Shown piece after piece: positions 11,529 through 19,882 of a stretch of DNA of 64,000 nucleotides. A program made the translations under genes and the position numbers. Each line of letters starts with the position of its first letter. The stretch's first letter is position 1. The stretch lies in the NCBI RefSeq assembly GCF_055900595.2, contig NZ_CM148325.1, one strand, 5' to 3'. Below the pieces are notes generated by a model, which had not been told where the DNA came from, did no database searches, and saw nothing but the letters and a program-made list of their open reading frames with translations.

Positions 11529-12116
11529 TTACTTTTGAAAGGCTTTTTTTAAGCTGATTTTGGAAATCAGCTCTGTCAGTGAAAGGACCATTGTTGATCG
11601 CACAGCCTGTTGGTAACGCTGAATTTGCATTGCATACAAACTGGAGTCTGCGGGTTCAAACTGTGGCGGCGGTGGTAACGCCGCCACACAGTGCAGCTCA
11701 CCAAAGGGGCCAAGAATTTCGTCGTCGGTAAAGGCGTACTCATTGCCGTCGTGATTTAGTTCTTCACGCAATGCCATCAGCAGTTCCGCATCTTCGTATT
11801 CATGGCGGTTAATGACACCCAACCCGTAAATGAGTTTTAAACGCACAGAAAGATCGCCCAGCGGGCCATCGCCGTCGAGTAACGGTTCTACAGCATACTT
11901 CACCGCGTAATCGTCTTTGCGGAATACCTGAAGCACCAGAAGATTTACCGCCTCGGTCAAAAGCTCGACGGCGGTAATCAGAAAGCTTCGCACGGTTTTG
12001 CCAGCATTCAGACGCTCAAGCACACGGTTTTCAAAGGCCTGGGTTTGTTCCATTGTTGCCTGCATATCTGACAATCTGTTATTCGGGCGCAGGGAGTCCT
12101 GCGCCTGGTCCACCAT
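11529..12116 (-). CDS. mtlR: Mannitol operon repressor
   Basis: 195-aa ORF recognised as MtlR; directly downstream of mtlD. Confidence 0.92.
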   Translation of the reverse strand: MVDQAQDSLRPNNRLSDMQATMEQTQAFENRVLERLNAGKTVRSFLITAVELLTEAVNLLVLQVFRKDDYAVKYAVEPLLDGDGPLGDLSVRLKLIYGLGVINRHEYEDAELLMALREELNHDGNEYAFTDDEILGPFGELHCVAALPPPPQFEPADSSLYAMQIQRYQQAVRSTMVLSLTELISKISLKKAFQK

Positions 12117-13264
12117 TATTGCATTGCTTTATAAGCGGTTACCGCCTCGGATACAACCTCGCTGTTAGCATCAAGGCCGGAAATCTGCGCCAGTGCGGCT
12201 TGCGGGCCTTTGTCGGCAATCAGTGCTGCCAGTTCCTGAGCCTGCGGATCATCTTCACTGCGGAAGTGCATTGCAGCGGCAATACCTTCAATCAGGTTTT
12301 TATGTGGCAGACCATATTCCAGCGTTCCGAGCAGTGGCTTGATCAGACGGTCGCCAGCACTCAGTTTACGCAGCGGCTGACGGCCTACGCGCTCTACATC
12401 GTCTTTCAGATACGGGTTCTCAAAACGACCAAGGATTTTCTGGATGTACGCCGCATGTTTGTCCGCGTCAAAACCGTAACGCTTGATCAGTACAGCGCCA
12501 CTTTCTTCCATCGCCCCTTTTACTACCGCGCGGATTTTCTCGTCGAGAATTGCGTCACGAATGGTCTGATGACCTGCCAGTTTTCCGAGGTACGCGGTTA
12601 TAGCATGACCTGTATTCAGGGTGAAGAGTTTACGCTCAACAAATGCCATCAGGTTGTCGGTTAACTCCATGCCTGGGATGTTCGGCAGTGCACCTTTGAA
12701 TTGGGTTTTATCGACAATCCATTCGCTGAAGGTTTCGACTGTCACTTCCAGCGGATCGTTCGTTGCCGAAGCGGAAGGCGGTACGATGCGGTCAACGGCA
12801 GAGTCCACAAAGCCAACATGTTCTTCGACCCACGCTTTGGCGTCTTCCGGCAGGGCGTTCATCACATGGCCTTTCAGCTGCGTGGTGCCGCGTACCATGT
12901 TTTCACAGGCGATAATGTTCAGCGGGGATTCATTACCTTGTTCTTTACGTTTCACCAGCCCTTTGGCGATTGCCGGAGCAATACGTTCCAGCACAACCGG
13001 GCCCACGGCGGTAGTGACTAAATCAACCTGAGCAATCAGATCAACGACATCATCACCAATGCTGCTGACAGCATTGACGCCAGAAACGGTATCTACCTGC
13101 TCGGTTTCACCGACTACATGAACCTGATAGCTATGACGGGCATTCAGGGCATCAAGTACCACCTGATTGACATCGGCAAACGTCAGTTGGATACCTGCGT
13201 CTGCCAGCAGTTTACCGATAAAGCCACGACCGATATTACCTGCGCCAAAATGTAATGCTTTCAT
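12116..13264 (-). CDS. mtlD: Mannitol-1-phosphate 5-dehydrogenase
   Basis: ORF 12116..13408; start taken at [15 protein letters not shown] (NAD-binding GxGxxG), 382 aa; the upstream extension runs into REP sequence. Confidence 0.92.
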
Positions 13265-13762: not shown

Positions 13763-15676
13763 TTACTTACGACCTGCCAGCAGTTCCAGCACTTCATCCA
13801 CGCTGGTGGTGTGCGCCAGACGCTCGATGACGGACTCATCATCCAGTGCGTTGGTCAGGCTGGTGATAACCTGAATGTGCTCGTTGTTACGGGCAGCAAT
13901 ACCAATCACCAGACGGGCAATGTCATCTTCTTCTTCACCGAAGCGCACGCCTTCCGGGTACTGGCAGAACACCACGCCCGTTTTCAGTACGCGATCTTTC
14001 GCTTCAACCGTACCGTGCGGTACCGCGATGGACTCACCCAGATAAGTCGGGGTCAGTTTTTCACGATCCAGCATCGCCTGAACGTATTCCGGCTCAACGT
14101 AACCGCCTTTCACCAGCTGCTCGCCAGCAAAACGAATCGCTTCTTCTTTGGTGGCCGCTTTGCGACCGAGGAAGATGTTCTCCGCGCCTAGCTTGAACAG
14201 GTTAGCACTGGAATCGTCAAAGCTGTCTTTCAGACTGTCTTTCACTTTTACTTCGTTTTCAGTATGGCGCTGGGCAGCAACCAGACGTTCGGTCAGGCTG
14301 GTGTACAGGCCGCTGTCGAGGAAGTTGGTCAGCGAAATATGCTGTGCCTGCGGAACCTGGCGCATAGCGCGTTCGGTCAGGTCACGGTGAGTGATGACCA
14401 GGTCCACATCTGGCGGCAGGTTGTTGATCGCGCTGTTAGTAACAGAAATCTGCGACAGACCTGCATCCTGAATTTTCTTACGCAGCACACCTGCGCCCAT
14501 CGCACTGGAACCCATACCGGCATCACAGGCAACGATGATTTTACGGACGTGGCTCAGGTCGTTAGTCACATCGCCAGCAGACAGCGGAGATGCGCCTTTA
14601 GATTCAGCTTTCATGTCCTGCATACGACGCGTTGCTGCTTCAATGTCATCTTCTTCTTTCACTTTGCTGGTTTTCAGCAGAATGGCAGAGACAACGAAGG
14701 AGACTGCCATCGCCGCACACACACCCGCTATGTTAGCGAAGTAAGCACCTTTTGGTGTCATCGCCAGTACCGCAAGGATAGAGCCCGGAGATGCCGGAGA
14801 AACCAGACCACCGCCCAGGATAGTCAGCGTGAATACGCCAGTCATACCACCGAGGATAACGGCCAGGATCAGACGCGGATTCATCAGCACATACGGGAAG
14901 TAGATTTCGTGGATACCCCCCAGGAAGTGAATGATTGCCGCACCGCCCGCAGACTGTTTAGCGCTACCACGACCAAAGAACATGTACGCCAGCAGAACAC
15001 CCATACCCGGACCTGGGTTAGCTTCAATCAGGAAGAAGATGGATTTACCCAGTTCATGGGACTGCTGAATACCCAGCGGCGAGAAGATACCGTGGTTAAT
15101 GGCGTTGTTGAGGAACAGGATTTTCGCCGGTTCAACAAAGATAGACGCCAGCGGCAGCATGTCATGGACAACCATGAAGTTAACGCCCGCAGCCAGCATT
15201 TTGGACAGGGCTTCAACAATCGGGCCAATGCCGAGGAACGCCAGAATAGCGAGGATCATCCCGATGATGCCTGCGGAGAAGTTATTCACCAGCATCTCAA
15301 AACCGGATTTGATCTTACCGTCTACCCAGCGGTCGAAGTGCTTAATGCACCAGCCGCCCAGCGGACCTGCAATCATAGAACCGAGGAACATCGGCATATC
15401 TGCGCCGACGATAACGCCCATTGTAGTGATGGCACCGACTACGCCGCCACGTTCGCCGCCTACCAGCTTACCACCGGTATAACCGATCAGCAGTGGCAGG
15501 AGATAAGTGATCATCGGCCCGACCAGCTTCGCCAGCGTTTCGTTCGGTAACCACCCTGTTGGAATAAATAGCGCGGTGATGATACCCCACGCGATAAACG
15601 CGCCGATATTTGGCATCACCATGTTGCTGAGGAAACGACCAAAGCTTTGCACTTTGATCTTAATATCGGATGACAT
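13763..15676 (-). CDS. mtlA: PTS mannitol-specific EIICBA component
   Basis: 637-aa ORF recognised as MtlA. Confidence 0.95.
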   Translation of the reverse strand: MSSDIKIKVQSFGRFLSNMVMPNIGAFIAWGIITALFIPTGWLPNETLAKLVGPMITYLLPLLIGYTGGKLVGGERGGVVGAITTMGVIVGADMPMFLGSMIAGPLGGWCIKHFDRWVDGKIKSGFEMLVNNFSAGIIGMILAILAFLGIGPIVEALSKMLAAGVNFMVVHDMLPLASIFVEPAKILFLNNAINHGIFSPLGIQQSHELGKSIFFLIEANPGPGMGVLLAYMFFGRGSAKQSAGGAAIIHFLGGIHEIYFPYVLMNPRLILAVILGGMTGVFTLTILGGGLVSPASPGSILAVLAMTPKGAYFANIAGVCAAMAVSFVVSAILLKTSKVKEEDDIEAATRRMQDMKAESKGASPLSAGDVTNDLSHVRKIIVACDAGMGSSAMGAGVLRKKIQDAGLSQISVTNSAINNLPPDVDLVITHRDLTERAMRQVPQAQHISLTNFLDSGLYTSLTERLVAAQRHTENEVKVKDSLKDSFDDSSANLFKLGAENIFLGRKAATKEEAIRFAGEQLVKGGYVEPEYVQAMLDREKLTPTYLGESIAVPHGTVEAKDRVLKTGVVFCQYPEGVRFGEEEDDIARLVIGIAARNNEHIQVITSLTNALDDESVIERLAHTTSVDEVLELLAGRK

Positions 15677-15819
15677 AAAAACACCCCTTCTTATGTTTGC
15701 TGTCGCGCAGGCTGGAAGCCCGAGGTTTTTTGTTAATGTGGCGGCAGAGGTAGCCGGACCTTGTTGATAGTGCGAAATCTGGCACTGAATCGGTTAACTG
15801 TCCAGTCGACGGCTTTTTG

Positions 15820-15996
15820 TGTGATATCGGTCACATAAATATAGGGGGTAGAGAGGTAATTGACGTGATGTGCATCACAAAATACTTGTGTAAAAAAGCA
15901 ACAAGACGGCGATTTTCGCTAAAAATGGCATTTAAATGTGAGTAATGTCACATTTTTGTTTTGTTGGTTTGTTGAATCTTTGTGATCTGAATCACA
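15820..15996. promoter_or_regulatory. mtl promoter region with several CRP-type palindromes
   Basis: tgtgatatcggtcaca (15820..15835) and tgtgatctgaatcaca (15981..15996) both fit TGTGA-N6-TCACA; gtgatgtgcatcac (15865..15878) is a further perfect palindrome. Confidence 0.65.
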
Positions 15997-16212
15997 AGAT
16001 ATTTTCTTACGGCGTTCACCTGATGTGATCTGCAGCATGTTATGCCTTCGTCATAAAATCGTTATGTAACTAAGCAACTCATCACCTCTAAAAATTATTC
16101 TTTGGTGTTATGGCGAGAATCGCGAACCCGAATTATTGTCAAAATATCAGCCTGACTCCCTTCTGGCTGCCAGCCAAAAAACAACACCGATAAACGTGAA
16201 TCCGAGGCAGAT

Positions 16213-16575
16213 ATGTTTCTAAACTATTTCGCGTTGGGAGTGCTGATCTTCGTCTTTCTGGTGATTTTTTATGTAATCATCGCGATACATGACATCCCTT
16301 ATCTGATTGCCAAAAAGCGCAATCACCCCCATGCCGACGCTATTCATACGGCGGGCTGGGTGAGCCTGTTTACTCTGCATGTTATCTGGCCGTTCCTGTG
16401 GATCTGGGCGACGCTCTATCAACCGGAGCGTGGCTGGGGTATGCAGTCACATGTTGCGTCGCAGGAGAAAGCGACTGACCCGGAAATCGCCGCACTTTCT
16501 GACCGAATTTCCCGGCTGGAGCATCAACTCGCCGCCGAGAAAAAGACTGACTATTCCACGTTCCCGGAGATCTAA
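16213..16575 (+). CDS. yibI: DUF3302-family small inner-membrane protein
   Basis: 120-aa ORF with two hydrophobic helices and a C-terminal coiled-coil tail; paralog of the ORF at 26155..26478. Confidence 0.85.
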
Positions 16576-16577
16576 AT

Positions 16578-17714
16578 ATGGATCTATTGATTGTTTTAAC
16601 TTACGTGGCGCTGGCGTGGGCGGTCTTTAAAATCTTCCGCATTCCGGTAAATCAGTGGACGCTGGCGACGGCGGCGCTGGGAGGCGTGTTTCTGGTGAGT
16701 GGTTTGATTTTGTTGATGAACTACAACCACCCTTACACTTTTACCGCACAGAAAGCGGTGATTGCTATTCCCATCACGCCACAGGTGACGGGGATCGTGA
16801 CTGAAGTCACTGACAAGAATAATCAGCTCATTCAGAAGGGCGAGGTGCTTTTTAAGCTCGACCCGGTACGTTATCAGGCGCGAGTCGACAGACTTCAGGC
16901 TGACCTGATGACGGCGACGCATAATATAAAGACACTGCGCGCGCAGCTCACTGAAGCGCAAGCCAATACCACCCAGGTTTCAGCGGAGCGTGACCGCTTG
17001 TTTAAAAATTATCAACGTTACCTGAAAGGCAGCCAAGCGGCGGTAAATCCGTTCTCAGAACGTGATATCGACGATGCGCGGCAGAATTTTCTCGCGCAGG
17101 ATGCGCTGGTGAAAGGCTCGGTGGCGGAACAGGCGCAAATCCAGAGCCAGCTCGACAGTATGGTTAACGGTGAGCAGTCGCAGATTGTCAGCTTAAGGGC
17201 GCAGCTTACCGAAGCGAAATATAACCTTGAGCAGACCGTCATTCGCGCGCCGAGCAATGGCTACGTCACTCAGGTGCTGATCCGCCCAGGTACATACGCA
17301 GCTGCCTTGCCGTTGCGTCCGGTAATGGTTTTCATCCCTGAGCAAAAACGGCAAATTGTCGCCCAATTTCGGCAAAACTCGCTGTTACGTCTGAAACCCG
17401 GCGATGATGCGGAAGTGGTGTTTAACGCGCTACCTGGGCAGGTGTTCCACGGCAAACTGACTAGTATTTTACCTGTCGTGCCAGGCGGTTCGTATCAGGC
17501 GCAAGGGGTATTGCAATCATTAACGGTCGTGCCCGGCACGGACGGTGTGCTGGGAACCATTGAACTGGACCCTAACGATGATATCGATGCTTTACCCGAC
17601 GGCATCTACGCCCAGGTGGCAGTTTACTCCGACCATTTCAGCCATGTTTCGGTGATGCGGAAGGTGCTGCTAAGAATGACCAGTTGGATGCATTATCTTT
17701 ATTTGGATCATTGA
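16578..17714 (+). CDS. yibH: HlyD-family membrane-fusion (periplasmic adaptor) protein
   Basis: 378-aa ORF with N-terminal TM helix, coiled-coil region and beta-barrel domain; starts 2 bp after yibI; paralog of yiaV. Confidence 0.85.
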
Positions 17715-17784
17715 GACTTGTATCACCTGTGTTTTGCGCGAGCCTGAGCCATACTGATATTTTTCCTCGCACAAAGGACTCGGC

Positions 17785-18393
17785 ATGAAACTCGTCGGTA
17801 GCTACACCAGCCCGTTTGTACGCAAACTTTCTATTCTGTTGTTAGAAAAGGGCATAACTTTCGAATTTATTAATGAACTGCCCTATAACGCGGACAACGG
17901 CGTGGCGCAATTTAACCCGTTAGGGAAAGTGCCGGTGCTGGTGACTGAAGAGGGCGAATGTTGGTTTGATTCGCCGATCATCGCTGAATATATTGAATTA
18001 ATGAATGTCGCTCCGGCGATGTTGCCGCGCGATCCGCTGGAGTCGTTGCGAGTGCGCAAAATTGAGGCGCTGGCGGATGGCATTATGGATGCCGGGCTGG
18101 TATCGGTGCGTGAACAGGCACGTCCGGCGGCGCAGCAGTCTGAAGATGAATTGTTACGCCAGCGGGAGAAAATCAACCGCAGTCTGGATGTGCTGGAAGG
18201 ATATCTGGTCGATGGCACGCTCAAAACCGATACGGTCAATCTGGCGACTATCGCCATTGCCTGTGCCGTCGGATATCTCAATTTCCGCCGCGTTGCGCCA
18301 GGCTGGTGTGTCGACCGCCCACACTTAGTCAAACTGGTCGAAAACCTGTTTAGCCGCGAAAGTTTTGCTCGCACCGAACCGCCAAAGGCTTGA
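17785..18393 (+). CDS. yibF: Glutathione S-transferase family protein
   Basis: 202-aa ORF recognised as YibF. Confidence 0.85.
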
Positions 18394-18490
18394 TGCGCGA
18401 TATGTCCTCCTGACCCATCTCACGTTACAATCCGTGGTTATGTTAAACGCCCTTCTCCGTGTGAGAGGGCCTTGATCAACCAGGTTTCCT

Positions 18491-19882
18491 ATGACAACCG
18501 AAACGCGTTCCCTCTATAGTCAACTTCCGGCTATTGATCGCTTATTGCGCGATAGCTCCTTCCTTTCTTTGCGTGATACTTATGGTCACACCCGCGTGGT
18601 GGAATTGCTGCGTCAGATGCTTGACGAAGCGCGAGAAGTGATTCGTGACAACCAGACGCTACCCGCGTGGTGTGAAAACTGGGCGCAAGAAGTTGATGCC
18701 CGGTTGACGAAAGAGGCGCAAAGCGCGCTGCGTCCGGTGATCAACCTGACGGGAACCGTGCTGCATACCAACCTTGGGCGAGCTTTACAGGCGGAAGCCG
18801 CGGTGGAGGCTGTTGCGCAGGCTATGCGTTCGCCAGTAACCCTCGAATACGATCTGGATGACGCCGGACGCGGACATCGCGATCGGGCGCTGGCGCAGCT
18901 GCTGTGCCGTATTACGGGGGCGGAAGATGCCTGTATCGTTAATAACAATGCGGCGGCGGTCTTGTTGATGTTGGCGGCCATTGCCAGCGGGAAAGAGGTG
19001 GTGGTTTCTCGCGGCGAACTGGTGGAGATTGGCGGTGCGTTTCGTATTCCCGATGTTATGCGCCAGGCAGGCTGCACACTACACGAAGTGGGGACCACCA
19101 ACCGCACGCACACTAATGATTATCGTCAGGCGGTGAATGAAAATACCGCTCTGTTGATGAAAGTACATACCAGTAACTACAGCATTCAGGGGTTCACCAA
19201 AGCGATAGATGAAGCTGAACTGGTGGCGCTCGGCAAAGAGCTGGATGTTCCCGTAGTGACTGACTTAGGCAGCGGCTCGCTGGTCGATCTTAGCCAGTAC
19301 GGTTTGCCGAAAGAGCCAATGCCGCAGGAGTTGATTGCGGCGGGCGTCAGTCTGGTGAGCTTCTCCGGCGACAAGCTGTTAGGCGGACCGCAGGCAGGAA
19401 TTATTGTTGGTAAAAAAGAGATGATTGCCCGCCTGCAAAGCCATCCGCTGAAGCGTGTATTACGCGCGGATAAAATGACCCTCGCGGCGCTGGAAGCCAC
19501 GTTGCGTCTTTATTTACACCCTGAAGCTTTGAGTGAAAAATTACCGACTCTGCGTCTGCTTACCCGCAGCGCAGAGGTCATTCAAATCCAGGCACAACGT
19601 TTACAGGCCCCCCTTGCCGCACATTACGGCGCGGAGTTTGCGGTACAGGTTATGCCATGTCTTTCGCAGATTGGCAGTGGTTCGCTGCCGGTTGATCGCC
19701 TGCCGAGCGCGGCATTAACGTTTACACCCCATGATGGACGCGGTAGCCACCTTGAGTCATTAGCCGCCCGCTGGCGTGAATTACCAGTGCCGGTGATTGG
19801 TCGTATTTATGACGGACGATTGTGGCTGGATTTACGCTGCCTTGAAGATGAGCAACGGTTTTTGGAGATGTTGTTGAAATGA
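18491..19882 (+). CDS. selA: L-seryl-tRNA(Sec) selenium transferase (selenocysteine synthase)
   Basis: 463-aa ORF recognised as SelA; 4-bp ATGA overlap with selB. Confidence 0.95.

What the first reader, a model, noticed from the sequence alone, without database searches (positions are those of the whole stretch)
15820..15996. Cluster of CRP-consensus palindromes upstream of mtlA
Two TGTGA-N6-TCACA sites (15820..15835, 15981..15996) and a further perfect palindrome gtgatgtgcatcac (15865..15878) lie in the 535-bp mtlA upstream region, which is shared divergently with yibI. This fits the catabolite control known for the mtl operon and raises the question of whether yibI-yibH expression is coupled to it.
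Basis: partly seen in the sequence, partly recalled or inferred. Interest (0 to 1): 0.3.

Follow-up and report, generated by a model that had tools for sequence, protein, structure and literature searches.

The report
Known CRP site array of mtlA
The palindromes are three of the five already-characterised cAMP-CRP binding sites that switch on the E. coli mannitol operon and also serve as the docking platform for its repressor MtlR; they are real and strongly conserved but ordinary, and nothing found here ties them to the neighbouring yibI-yibH genes.

Summary
All three exact TGTGA-N6-TCACA matches in the 64-kb window lie in the 536-bp mtlA/yibI spacer (expected 0.05). The "perfect palindrome" is 12/14 self-complementary and is the core of a one-mismatch CRP site (15864-15879). 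With a weak fifth site (16024-16039), the centres are spaced 44/73/44/43 bp. This matches exactly the published CRP5-CRP1 sites of E. coli mtlADR (-58.5 to -262.5), where CRP activates and the DNA-binding-domain-less repressor MtlR docks on CRP dimer pairs 43-46 bp apart (Lee et al., NAR 2026). mtlR is intact here.

In 40 other Enterobacterales species the CRP2-CRP5 half-sites and the 44/73/44 spacing are conserved at a fixed distance from mtlA. This holds whatever gene lies upstream; yibIH is there in only 12 of 80 loci.

Coupling to yibIH is untested in the literature I could reach, and the indirect evidence leans against it. The array-to-yibI distance varies (121/224/350 bp). A CRP-free fragment still gave a yibI promoter clone. 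yibIH is absent from the listed Crp iModulon genes. yibIH and mtlA share responses only to carbon supply.

Verdict: already known, low interest.

The parts
15820..15835 (.). CRP5, promoter-proximal CRP site (TGTGATATCGGTCACA; 10/10), centre 15827.5 = -58.5 from the mtlA TSS
   Evidence: Exact match. Spacing matches published CRP5. Half-site conservation is 1.71 bits in 41 species. Reported essential for mtl expression in K-12.
15864..15879 (.). CRP4 (CGTGATGTGCATCACA; 9/10), centre 15871.5 = -102.5.
   Evidence: It lies 44 bp from CRP5, which makes an MtlR-competent pair. Reported essential in K-12.
15937..15952 (.). CRP3 (TGTGAGTAATGTCACA; 10/10), centre 15944.5 = -175.5.
   Evidence: It lies 73 bp from CRP4 and 44 bp from CRP2.
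15981..15996 (.). CRP2 (TGTGATCTGAATCACA; 10/10), centre 15988.5 = -219.5
   Evidence: The identical 16-mer lies under an ETEC ChIP-seq CRP peak. Reported essential in K-12.
16024..16039 (.). CRP1, a weak distal site (TGTGATCTGCAGCATG; 7/10), centre 16031.5 = -262.5
   Evidence: It lies 43 bp from CRP2. It is poorly conserved (0.36 bits). Reported dispensable and normally unoccupied in K-12.
15799..15804 (-). Inferred mtlA -35 hexamer TGGACA
   Evidence: Position follows from CRP5 at -58.5. There is a 17-bp spacer to the -10, and the block is conserved in the 41-species footprint. The TSS was not measured here.
15776..15781 (-). Inferred mtlA -10 hexamer CAGATT. The TSS is about 15769 (-), give or take 1-2 nt, which gives a ~93-nt leader.
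   Evidence: The TSS is derived from published numbering, not measured here.
15784..15797 (.). Cra-like sequence ACTGAATCGGTTAA between the -35 and -10
   Evidence: Seen in the sequence and moderately conserved. The Cra consensus is recalled from memory. Lee et al. state that Cra and Fis sites exist in this promoter but give no coordinates in the text read.
15968..15973 (-). Conserved AACAAA block in the CRP2-CRP3 spacer (-204..-199); role unknown
   Evidence: 1.1-2.0 bits per position; exact in 32 of 41 sequences.
16000..16005 (-). Conserved AAAATA block just upstream of CRP2 (-236..-231); role unknown
   Evidence: 1.2-1.8 bits per position; exact in 25 of 41 sequences.
13763..15676 (-). mtlA, mannitol PTS EIICBA
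   Evidence: ORF; Pfam EIIC, IIB and EIIA_2; RefSeq annotation of homologous DNA.
12116..13264 (-). mtlD, mannitol-1-phosphate 5-dehydrogenase. The start is inferred from the K-12 length of 382 aa.
11529..12116 (-). mtlR, repressor without a DNA-binding domain that docks on paired CRP dimers
   Evidence: 195-aa ORF; Pfam MtlR PF05068, E=2.8e-66; mechanism.
16213..16575 (+). yibI (DUF3302), the divergent neighbour. Not shown to belong to the CRP/MtlR circuit.
16578..17714 (+). yibH (HlyD-like membrane-fusion protein), 2 bp downstream of the yibI stop codon
16111..16139 (+). Candidate yibI sigma-70 promoter TGGCGA-N17-TATTGT (weak, 7/12); predicted TSS about 16146
   Evidence: It is the only promoter-like arrangement conserved in 7 of 7 Escherichia/Citrobacter/Pseudocitrobacter loci. 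It lies inside the CRP-free DFI insert that starts at 16068. This is inference only.

Best explanation
The cluster is the class III CRP-dependent control region of the mannitol operon mtlADR.

Five cAMP-CRP sites (CRP5 to CRP1) sit at -58.5, -102.5, -175.5, -219.5 and -262.5 from the mtlA transcription start, which falls at about window 15769 on the minus strand.

How it works, from published experiments on the K-12 orthologue:
- When glucose is absent, cAMP-CRP occupies CRP2-CRP5 and activates a weak sigma-70 promoter (TGGACA-N17-CAGATT).
- The two pairs of sites 44 bp apart (CRP4/5 and CRP2/3, or alternatively CRP1/2 at 43 bp) present two CRP dimers in the geometry that the MtlR dimer needs. 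MtlR has no DNA-binding domain.
- MtlR bridges the CRP pair and blocks CRP-RNA polymerase contacts.
- Mannitol uptake dephosphorylates EII-Mtl, which pulls MtlR to the membrane and relieves repression.

Shown here:
- The sites, their significance and their exact spacing.
- Identity with the K-12 region.
- An intact mtlR gene.
- Deep conservation of the half-sites and the spacing.

Taken from the literature on orthologous DNA: CRP and MtlR binding, and the effects of site mutations.

Inferred: the TSS and the -10/-35 elements in this strain.

The array belongs to mtlA. yibI-yibH most likely use their own promoter within about 145 bp of the yibI ATG.
For: Sequence statistics:
- 3 exact sites against 0.05 expected, all in this spacer.
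- All four sites with at most 1 mismatch are also here.

Match to the published K-12 region:
- The centres give 44/73/44/43 bp, identical to the published CRP5-CRP1 spacing and coordinates.
- The spacer is 96.8% identical to K-12 with no indels. None of the 17 differences falls in a half-site.

Published binding and function on orthologous DNA:
- EMSA with cAMP-CRP and an MtlR supershift only at 43-46 bp spacing. Chromosomal mutants of CRP2, CRP4 or CRP5 lose mtl expression.
- Genomic SELEX: 38 of 160 clones came from this spacer.
- ETEC ChIP-seq: two CRP peaks on these sequences.
- PhyloScan ranks this spacer first among predicted CRP regions.
- mtlA, mtlD and mtlR are in the Crp-1 and Crp-2 iModulons.

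This window:
- mtlR is intact.

Comparative evidence:
- 40 species keep exactly 44/73/44, and 9 more keep 43-45/72-74/43-45.
- Half-site conservation is 1.7-1.85 bits against 0.57 for background (Mann-Whitney P=2e-17).
- CRP5 stays 145.5-151.5 bp from the mtlA ATG in the 12 loci that carry yibI.
- The array persists with a yibF-like GST neighbour or a co-directional DUF3053 neighbour.
Against: - Nothing in this strain was measured. CRP occupancy, the TSS and MtlR docking are all transferred from K-12, ETEC and Salmonella work.
- CRP5 in this strain has C instead of the well-conserved T right after TGTGA on the mtlA strand (TGTGAC...). This could lower its affinity somewhat.
- The position implied for the TSS (15769) is a T on the mtlA strand, so the true start may be 1-2 nt away.
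- How the far-upstream sites activate transcription is still unresolved in the literature.
Confidence: 0.95

Rival explanations
1. Bidirectional use. The distal sites (CRP1, CRP2, perhaps CRP3) also activate the divergent yibI-yibH operon, and MtlR docking on CRP1/2 or CRP2/3 would also make it mannitol-responsive. The spacer would then be a shared divergent CRP regulatory region, like malE-malK.
For: - The ETEC ChIP-seq peak over CRP2/CRP1 was assigned to yibI, though by proximity only.
- Shimada et al. note that both divergent promoters are often CRP-regulated.
- In O157 Sakai, yibI, yibH and mtlA all fall in sugar-rich leaf lysate (-3.1, -2.1, -6.3) and all rise in carbon-poor root exudate (+268, +152, +28).
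- Three of four DFI clones carried the longer insert, which includes CRP1-3.
Against: - The distance from CRP2 to the yibI ATG is 121.5, about 224 or about 350 bp in different genera, while the distance to mtlA is fixed.
- The array predates and outlives the yibIH adjacency: yibIH is present in 12 of 80 loci, while the array is present in about 49.
- CRP1 occurs both with and without yibI, and is absent in Pseudescherichia, which has yibI.
- A DFI clone starting at window 16068, with no CRP site, was still recovered.
- The only conserved promoter-like element would put CRP1 near -114.5, which is not a standard class I position.
- yibIH is not among the listed Crp-1/Crp-2 genes (5 Crp-1 names are not shown).
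- yibIH falls 58-92-fold in lettuce cell-wall extract, where the CRP targets lacZY and mglABC rise and mtlA is unchanged. yibIH also responds to temperature and mtlA does not.
Confidence: 0.17
2. Chance or non-functional palindromes: an A/T-rich intergenic region that happens to contain TGTGA/TCACA motifs.
For: None beyond the general fact that weak CRP-like matches are common. With 1 mismatch allowed, 1.77 per window are expected.
Against: - Three exact sites against 0.05 expected.
- Half-sites and spacing are conserved in 40-49 species.
- Published binding and mutational data exist.
Confidence: 0.01
3. The upstream cluster (CRP1-CRP3) has mainly an architectural or anti-silencing role, through DNA bending, looping or displacement of nucleoid proteins, possibly with another factor bound at the conserved AACAAA/AAAATA blocks. 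It would not be a direct polymerase-contacting activator. This refines the main explanation rather than replacing it.
For: - CRP2 at -219.5 is essential although it is far from the polymerase. Lee et al. propose looping or anti-silencing.
- The inter-pair distance stays at 72-74 bp, and in Edwardsiella it is 63 bp, one helical turn shorter, which is consistent with phase constraint.
- Two conserved non-CRP blocks flank CRP2.
Against: - No experiment I read addresses it.
- The conserved blocks may simply reflect a CRP preference for A/T-rich flanks.
Confidence: 0.4

Closest known systems
E. coli K-12 mtlADR control region with five CRP sites (Lee et al., Nucleic Acids Res 2026, PMC13421365; first described in the 1990s by Saier's laboratory, which I recall from memory)
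   Same: - It is the same locus and an orthologous sequence: 519 of 536 bp identical with no indels.
- It has the same five sites with the same 43/44/73/44 spacing.
- It has the same flanking genes, and mtlR is present.
   Different: - There are 17 substitutions. Six fall in the N6 spacers of CRP5, CRP4, CRP3 and CRP1, and none in half-sites.
- In this strain CRP3 is 10/10, while in the E. coli representative L003 it is 9/10.
CytR-CRP repression complexes at deoP2 and related promoters (anti-activation through tandem CRP sites)
   Same: A repressor acts by contacting DNA-bound CRP dimers at tandem sites and masking the CRP activating regions. Lee et al. draw this comparison themselves.
   Different: - CytR has its own DNA-binding domain and operator, and MtlR has none.
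- MtlR selectivity comes only from the 43-46 bp spacing between CRP sites.
malEp-malKp divergent region with multiple CRP sites
   Same: It is a long divergent intergenic region with an array of CRP sites; malK has four.
   Different: - In mal, the array serves both divergent operons (from my own knowledge).
- Here nothing shows use by yibIH, and the geometry is conserved only relative to mtlA.
- The mal spacing of 34 bp does not recruit MtlR.

Membership tests
cAMP-CRP binding site | Match to the two-fold symmetric core TGTGA-N6-TCACA | tested here: met
   Three sites match 10/10, one 9/10 and one 7/10.
cAMP-CRP binding site | Purifying selection on the half-sites but not on the N6 spacer | tested here: met
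   Across 41 sequences the half-sites carry 1.71-1.85 bits, the N6 spacers 0.43-0.60 and the background 0.57. CRP1 fails this test (0.36 bits).
cAMP-CRP binding site | cAMP-dependent CRP occupancy in vitro or in vivo | not testable with these tools
   The literature on orthologous sequences covers this: EMSA, SELEX and ChIP-seq in ETEC with the identical CRP2 16-mer.
mtlADR class III CRP/MtlR operator | Five sites at -58.5, -102.5, -175.5, -219.5 and -262.5, that is spacing 44/73/44/43 | tested here: met
   The centres are 15827.5, 15871.5, 15944.5, 15988.5 and 16031.5, which match.
mtlADR class III CRP/MtlR operator | At least one pair of CRP sites 43-46 bp apart, the requirement for MtlR docking | tested here: met
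   CRP5-CRP4 are 44 bp apart, CRP3-CRP2 44 bp and CRP2-CRP1 43 bp.
mtlADR class III CRP/MtlR operator | Located upstream of an mtlA-mtlD-mtlR operon with an intact MtlR (PF05068) | tested here: met
   Pfam hits for all three proteins; ORFs.
mtlADR class III CRP/MtlR operator | Transcription start and -10/-35 at the mapped position | tested here: inconclusive
   TGGACA-N17-CAGATT lies where the published numbering predicts and is conserved. No TSS data for this strain or for K-12 could be retrieved.
Shared (bidirectional) CRP-dependent divergent promoter region | A CRP site at a conserved, activation-competent distance from the second (yibI) promoter | tested here: not met
   The distance from CRP2 to the yibI ATG takes three values, 121.5, about 224 and about 350 bp. 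The only conserved promoter-like element would put CRP1 near -114.5. The yibI TSS itself is unknown.
Shared (bidirectional) CRP-dependent divergent promoter region | CRP/cAMP dependence of the second operon's expression | not testable with these tools
   - No published test was found.
- The indirect data are mixed.

The most novel reading that the evidence does not exclude
The distal half of the array (CRP1-CRP3) doubles as an upstream activating and MtlR-repressible element for yibI-yibH. This uncharacterised DUF3302/HlyD-like membrane pair would then be part of the mannitol/catabolite circuit in Escherichia and Citrobacter. It would also be the first target of MtlR outside mtlADR.
Probability: 0.12. 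Interest if true: 0.4.

Novelty: already known. Interest (0 to 1): 0.12.

Why it matters
It matters little as a discovery. This is one of the best-studied CRP regions in E. coli, and a 2026 paper explains why its spacing matters.

The check does have three uses:
- It shows that the 44/73/44 architecture and the half-sites are conserved in at least 40 Enterobacterales species whatever gene lies upstream. This independently supports the published spacing model.
- It turns the yibI question into a cheap experiment, because chromosomal CRP-site mutants already exist.

If yibIH did turn out to be CRP/MtlR-controlled, that would give a first functional handle on two y-genes and a second MtlR target.

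Tried and rejected
- **Genome-wide TSS tables.** I looked for a yibI or mtlA start site in the Cappable-seq, Romero 2014 and Shigella M90T supplements. None gave a usable entry, and Thomason 2015 is not held.
- **Default sigma-70 scan.** It found no yibI or mtlA promoter at its stringency. Its only hit (15670-15697, plus strand) overlaps the mtlA start codon region and is no more than chance (1 found against 1.4 expected).
- **Rfam scan of 15400-16400.** No RNA family matched, and in particular nothing like the Vibrio MtlS antisense RNA.
- **Inverted repeat CAGCC-N12-GGCTG upstream of yibI as an RNA hairpin.** The stem is invariant in 6 of 7 sequences and broken in the seventh, with no real covariation, so there is no support.
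- **Sigma-54, sigma-E and sigma-32 motifs upstream of yibI.** By-eye matches had the wrong spacing or were not conserved. The consensus sequences came only from memory, so I rejected these.
- **Terminator-like hit at 15798-15812.** I treated it as chance (1 found against 0.6 expected).

Full report
**Observation**

The window carries mtlA on the minus strand (13763-15676) and yibI and yibH on the plus strand (16213-16575 and 16578-17714). They are separated by a 536-bp spacer.

Exact TGTGA-N6-TCACA occurs three times in the 64-kb window, always in this spacer, against 0.05 expected. The third exact site, 15937-15952, was missed.

The 14-mer called a perfect palindrome is 12/14 self-complementary. 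It is the core of CGTGATGTGCATCACA at 15864-15879, the only one-mismatch match in the window. A fifth site with one perfect half, TGTGATCTGCAGCATG at 16024-16039, completes the series.

**Identity**

The DNA is Escherichia. The stretch 15600-16300 matches 5404 of 5426 complete E. coli genomes, mostly at 95-99% identity, under the annotations yibI and mtlA. Against K-12 the spacer has 17 substitutions and no indels. Pfam confirms the following:
- mtlA as EIIC, IIB and EIIA.
- mtlD.
- An intact mtlR (PF05068).
- yibI (DUF3302).
- yibH (HlyD-like).

**What it is**

The centres of the five sites are 15827.5, 15871.5, 15944.5, 15988.5 and 16031.5, so the spacing is 44, 73, 44 and 43 bp.

Lee et al. 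(NAR 2026, PMC13421365) give the five CRP sites of the K-12 mtl operator as -58.5, -102.5, -175.5, -219.5 and -262.5 from the S1-mapped start. Their spacing is 44/73/44/43, read from the promoter outward.

The match is exact.

The numbering places the mtlA start at about 15769 on the minus strand. TGGACA (15804-15799) and CAGATT (15781-15776) sit 17 bp apart as the -35 and -10. This is inferred, because I could not retrieve TSS data.

**Mechanism (from the literature, on orthologous DNA)**

- cAMP-CRP is required for mtl transcription.
- Chromosomal replacement of CRP2, CRP4 or CRP5 abolishes expression and growth on mannitol. Replacing CRP3 has a mild effect, and CRP1 is dispensable and normally unoccupied.
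- MtlR has no DNA-binding domain. It supershifts CRP-DNA only when two sites are occupied 43-46 bp apart, best at 44-45 bp. The 73-bp pair does not work unless it is shortened to 44 bp.
- MtlR contacts CRP near AR2 and is thought to block the alpha-CTD contacts.

Independent binding evidence:
- 38 of 160 genomic SELEX clones came from this spacer.
- There are two CRP ChIP-seq peaks in ETEC H10407, one of them on a 16-mer identical to the window's CRP2.
- The spacer ranks first in PhyloScan CRP predictions.
- mtlA, mtlD and mtlR belong to the Crp-1 and Crp-2 iModulons.

**Comparative test done here**

I fetched 80 MtlA loci from species-representative genomes and scanned 700 bp upstream of each.
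- Forty loci, all Enterobacterales, keep exactly 44/73/44. They include Escherichia, Citrobacter, Enterobacter, Klebsiella, Serratia, Yersinia, Pantoea, Erwinia, Pectobacterium, Hafnia, Budvicia and Rahnella.
- Nine more keep 43-45/72-74/43-45. These are Providencia, Photorhabdus, Budvicia diplopodorum, Aeromonas, Tolumonas, Vibrio and Photobacterium.
- Edwardsiella has 44/63/44, one helical turn shorter.
- A Pasteurellaceae locus and a Gilliamella locus keep only a 44-bp pair.
- Firmicutes, Fusobacteria and the alphaproteobacterial locus have nothing comparable.

In a gapless footprint of 41 sequences:
- The CRP2-CRP5 half-sites carry 1.71-1.85 bits per position.
- The N6 spacers carry 0.43-0.60 bits.
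- The inter-site background carries 0.57 bits (P=2e-17).
- CRP1 carries 0.36 bits.
- The -35 and -10 also stand out.

**The yibI question**

Lee et al. never mention yibI, and I found no paper that tests CRP control of yibI.

Evidence against dedicated coupling:
- yibI and yibH lie upstream of mtlA in only 12 of the 80 loci. The array is present in about 49.
- Where yibIH is absent, the neighbour is a divergent yibF-like GST (Phytobacter) or a co-directional DUF3053 gene (Pfam-confirmed in Serratia; the Yersinia and Pantoea neighbours have closely similar sequences). The array is unchanged in both cases. The array is therefore older than the yibIH adjacency.
- In the 12 yibI loci, CRP5 stays 145.5-151.5 bp from the mtlA ATG. 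CRP2 lies 121.5, about 224 or about 350 bp from the yibI ATG.
- In UTI89 promoter-trap screens, yibI clones induced in urine started at window 15883 (three colonies, with CRP1-3) and at 16068 (one colony, with no CRP site).
- The only promoter-like element conserved in all seven Escherichia/Citrobacter/Pseudocitrobacter loci is TGGCGA-N17-TATTGT (16111-16139). It lies inside the short insert and puts CRP1 near -114.5.
- yibI and yibH are not in the fully listed Crp-2 iModulon, nor among the 55 of 60 Crp-1 genes that are shown.
- yibIH has strong regulation of its own. It is an early heat-responsive gene, is 7-11-fold lower at 18 °C than at 37 °C, and falls 58-92-fold in lettuce cell-wall extract. 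In that extract mtlA is unchanged, and lacZY and mglABC rise.

Evidence keeping coupling open:
- The ChIP peak assigned to yibI.
- Parallel changes in leaf lysate (all three down) and in carbon-poor root exudate (yibI +268, yibH +152, mtlA +28). Any starvation-induced gene would show the same pattern.

I put shared control at about 0.15.

**Novelty and verdict**

The feature is real, highly non-random, functional and already explained in detail. It is a textbook-level CRP region with a recent mechanistic paper.

Its map was incomplete, and one descriptor was wrong.

The yibI idea is a fair open question with indirect evidence leaning against it.

The small residues that I could not find described are the conserved AACAAA and AAAATA blocks flanking CRP2 and the excess of strain-to-strain substitutions in the N6 spacers. 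These are minor.

Noticed in passing
window 15968-15973 and 16000-16005: Two short blocks flank CRP2: AACAAA (-204..-199, in the CRP2-CRP3 spacer) and AAAATA (-236..-231). Across 41 species they are conserved about as well as the CRP half-sites (up to 2.0 bits; exact in 32/41 and 25/41). No CRP core explains them, and the sections of Lee et al. that I read do not mention them. They could be a CRP flank or bend preference, an alpha-CTD docking site, or a Fis site.
   Followed up: partly
window 15825-15830, 15869-15874, 15942-15947, 16029-16034: Strain-to-strain substitutions pile up in the N6 spacers of the CRP sites. Six of the 17 K-12/window differences fall in these 30 bp (binomial P=2e-4), as do 4 of the 17 UTI89/window differences (P=0.013). 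None falls in the 50 half-site positions. One of them changes the well-conserved T after TGTGA in CRP5 to C.
   Followed up: partly
window 16100-16175: A block upstream of yibI is conserved in Escherichia, Citrobacter and Pseudocitrobacter. It contains the candidate promoter TGGCGA-N17-TATTGT (16111-16139) and an inverted repeat, CAGCC (16148-16152) / GGCTG (16165-16169). The repeat shows no covariation, so it may be a protein-binding site rather than an RNA hairpin.
   Followed up: partly
window 16213-17714 (yibI-yibH): In published data yibIH is one of the most condition-responsive uncharacterised operons. It rises 150-290-fold in spinach root exudate and falls 58-92-fold in lettuce cell-wall extract. 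It is an early heat-shock responder and is induced 5.6-fold in urine. A UTI89 yibI deletion mutant showed a fitness defect in urine and reduced adhesion to bladder cells. Its regulator is unknown.
   Followed up: partly
window 17715-19882: In this strain yibH is followed directly by a GST-like gene (yibF, 17785-18393) and selA (18491-19882). K-12 has the rhsA/yibJ/yibG/yibV/yibU island between yibF and yibH, so this strain lacks that Rhs element.
   Followed up: partly
L009, L032 versus L003-L008 (upstream of mtlA): yibI-yibH appear to be an insertion between yibF/selA and mtlA that is present in only part of the Enterobacteriaceae. Phytobacter has the yibF-like GST directly divergent from mtlA, and Klebsiella sp. 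BIGb0407 has selA there. Serratia, Yersinia and Pantoea have a co-directional DUF3053-type lipoprotein gene instead.
   Followed up: partly
L047 (Edwardsiella hoshinae), upstream of mtlA: The CRP array there is spaced 44/63/44 instead of 44/73/44, so the distance between the two pairs is shorter by one helical turn. This hints that the two 44-bp pairs must stay in helical phase.
   Followed up: no
window 15784-15797: ACTGAATCGGTTAA lies between the mtlA -35 and -10. It resembles the Cra (FruR) operator consensus as I recall it and is moderately conserved. This fits the reported Cra repression of mtl.
   Followed up: no
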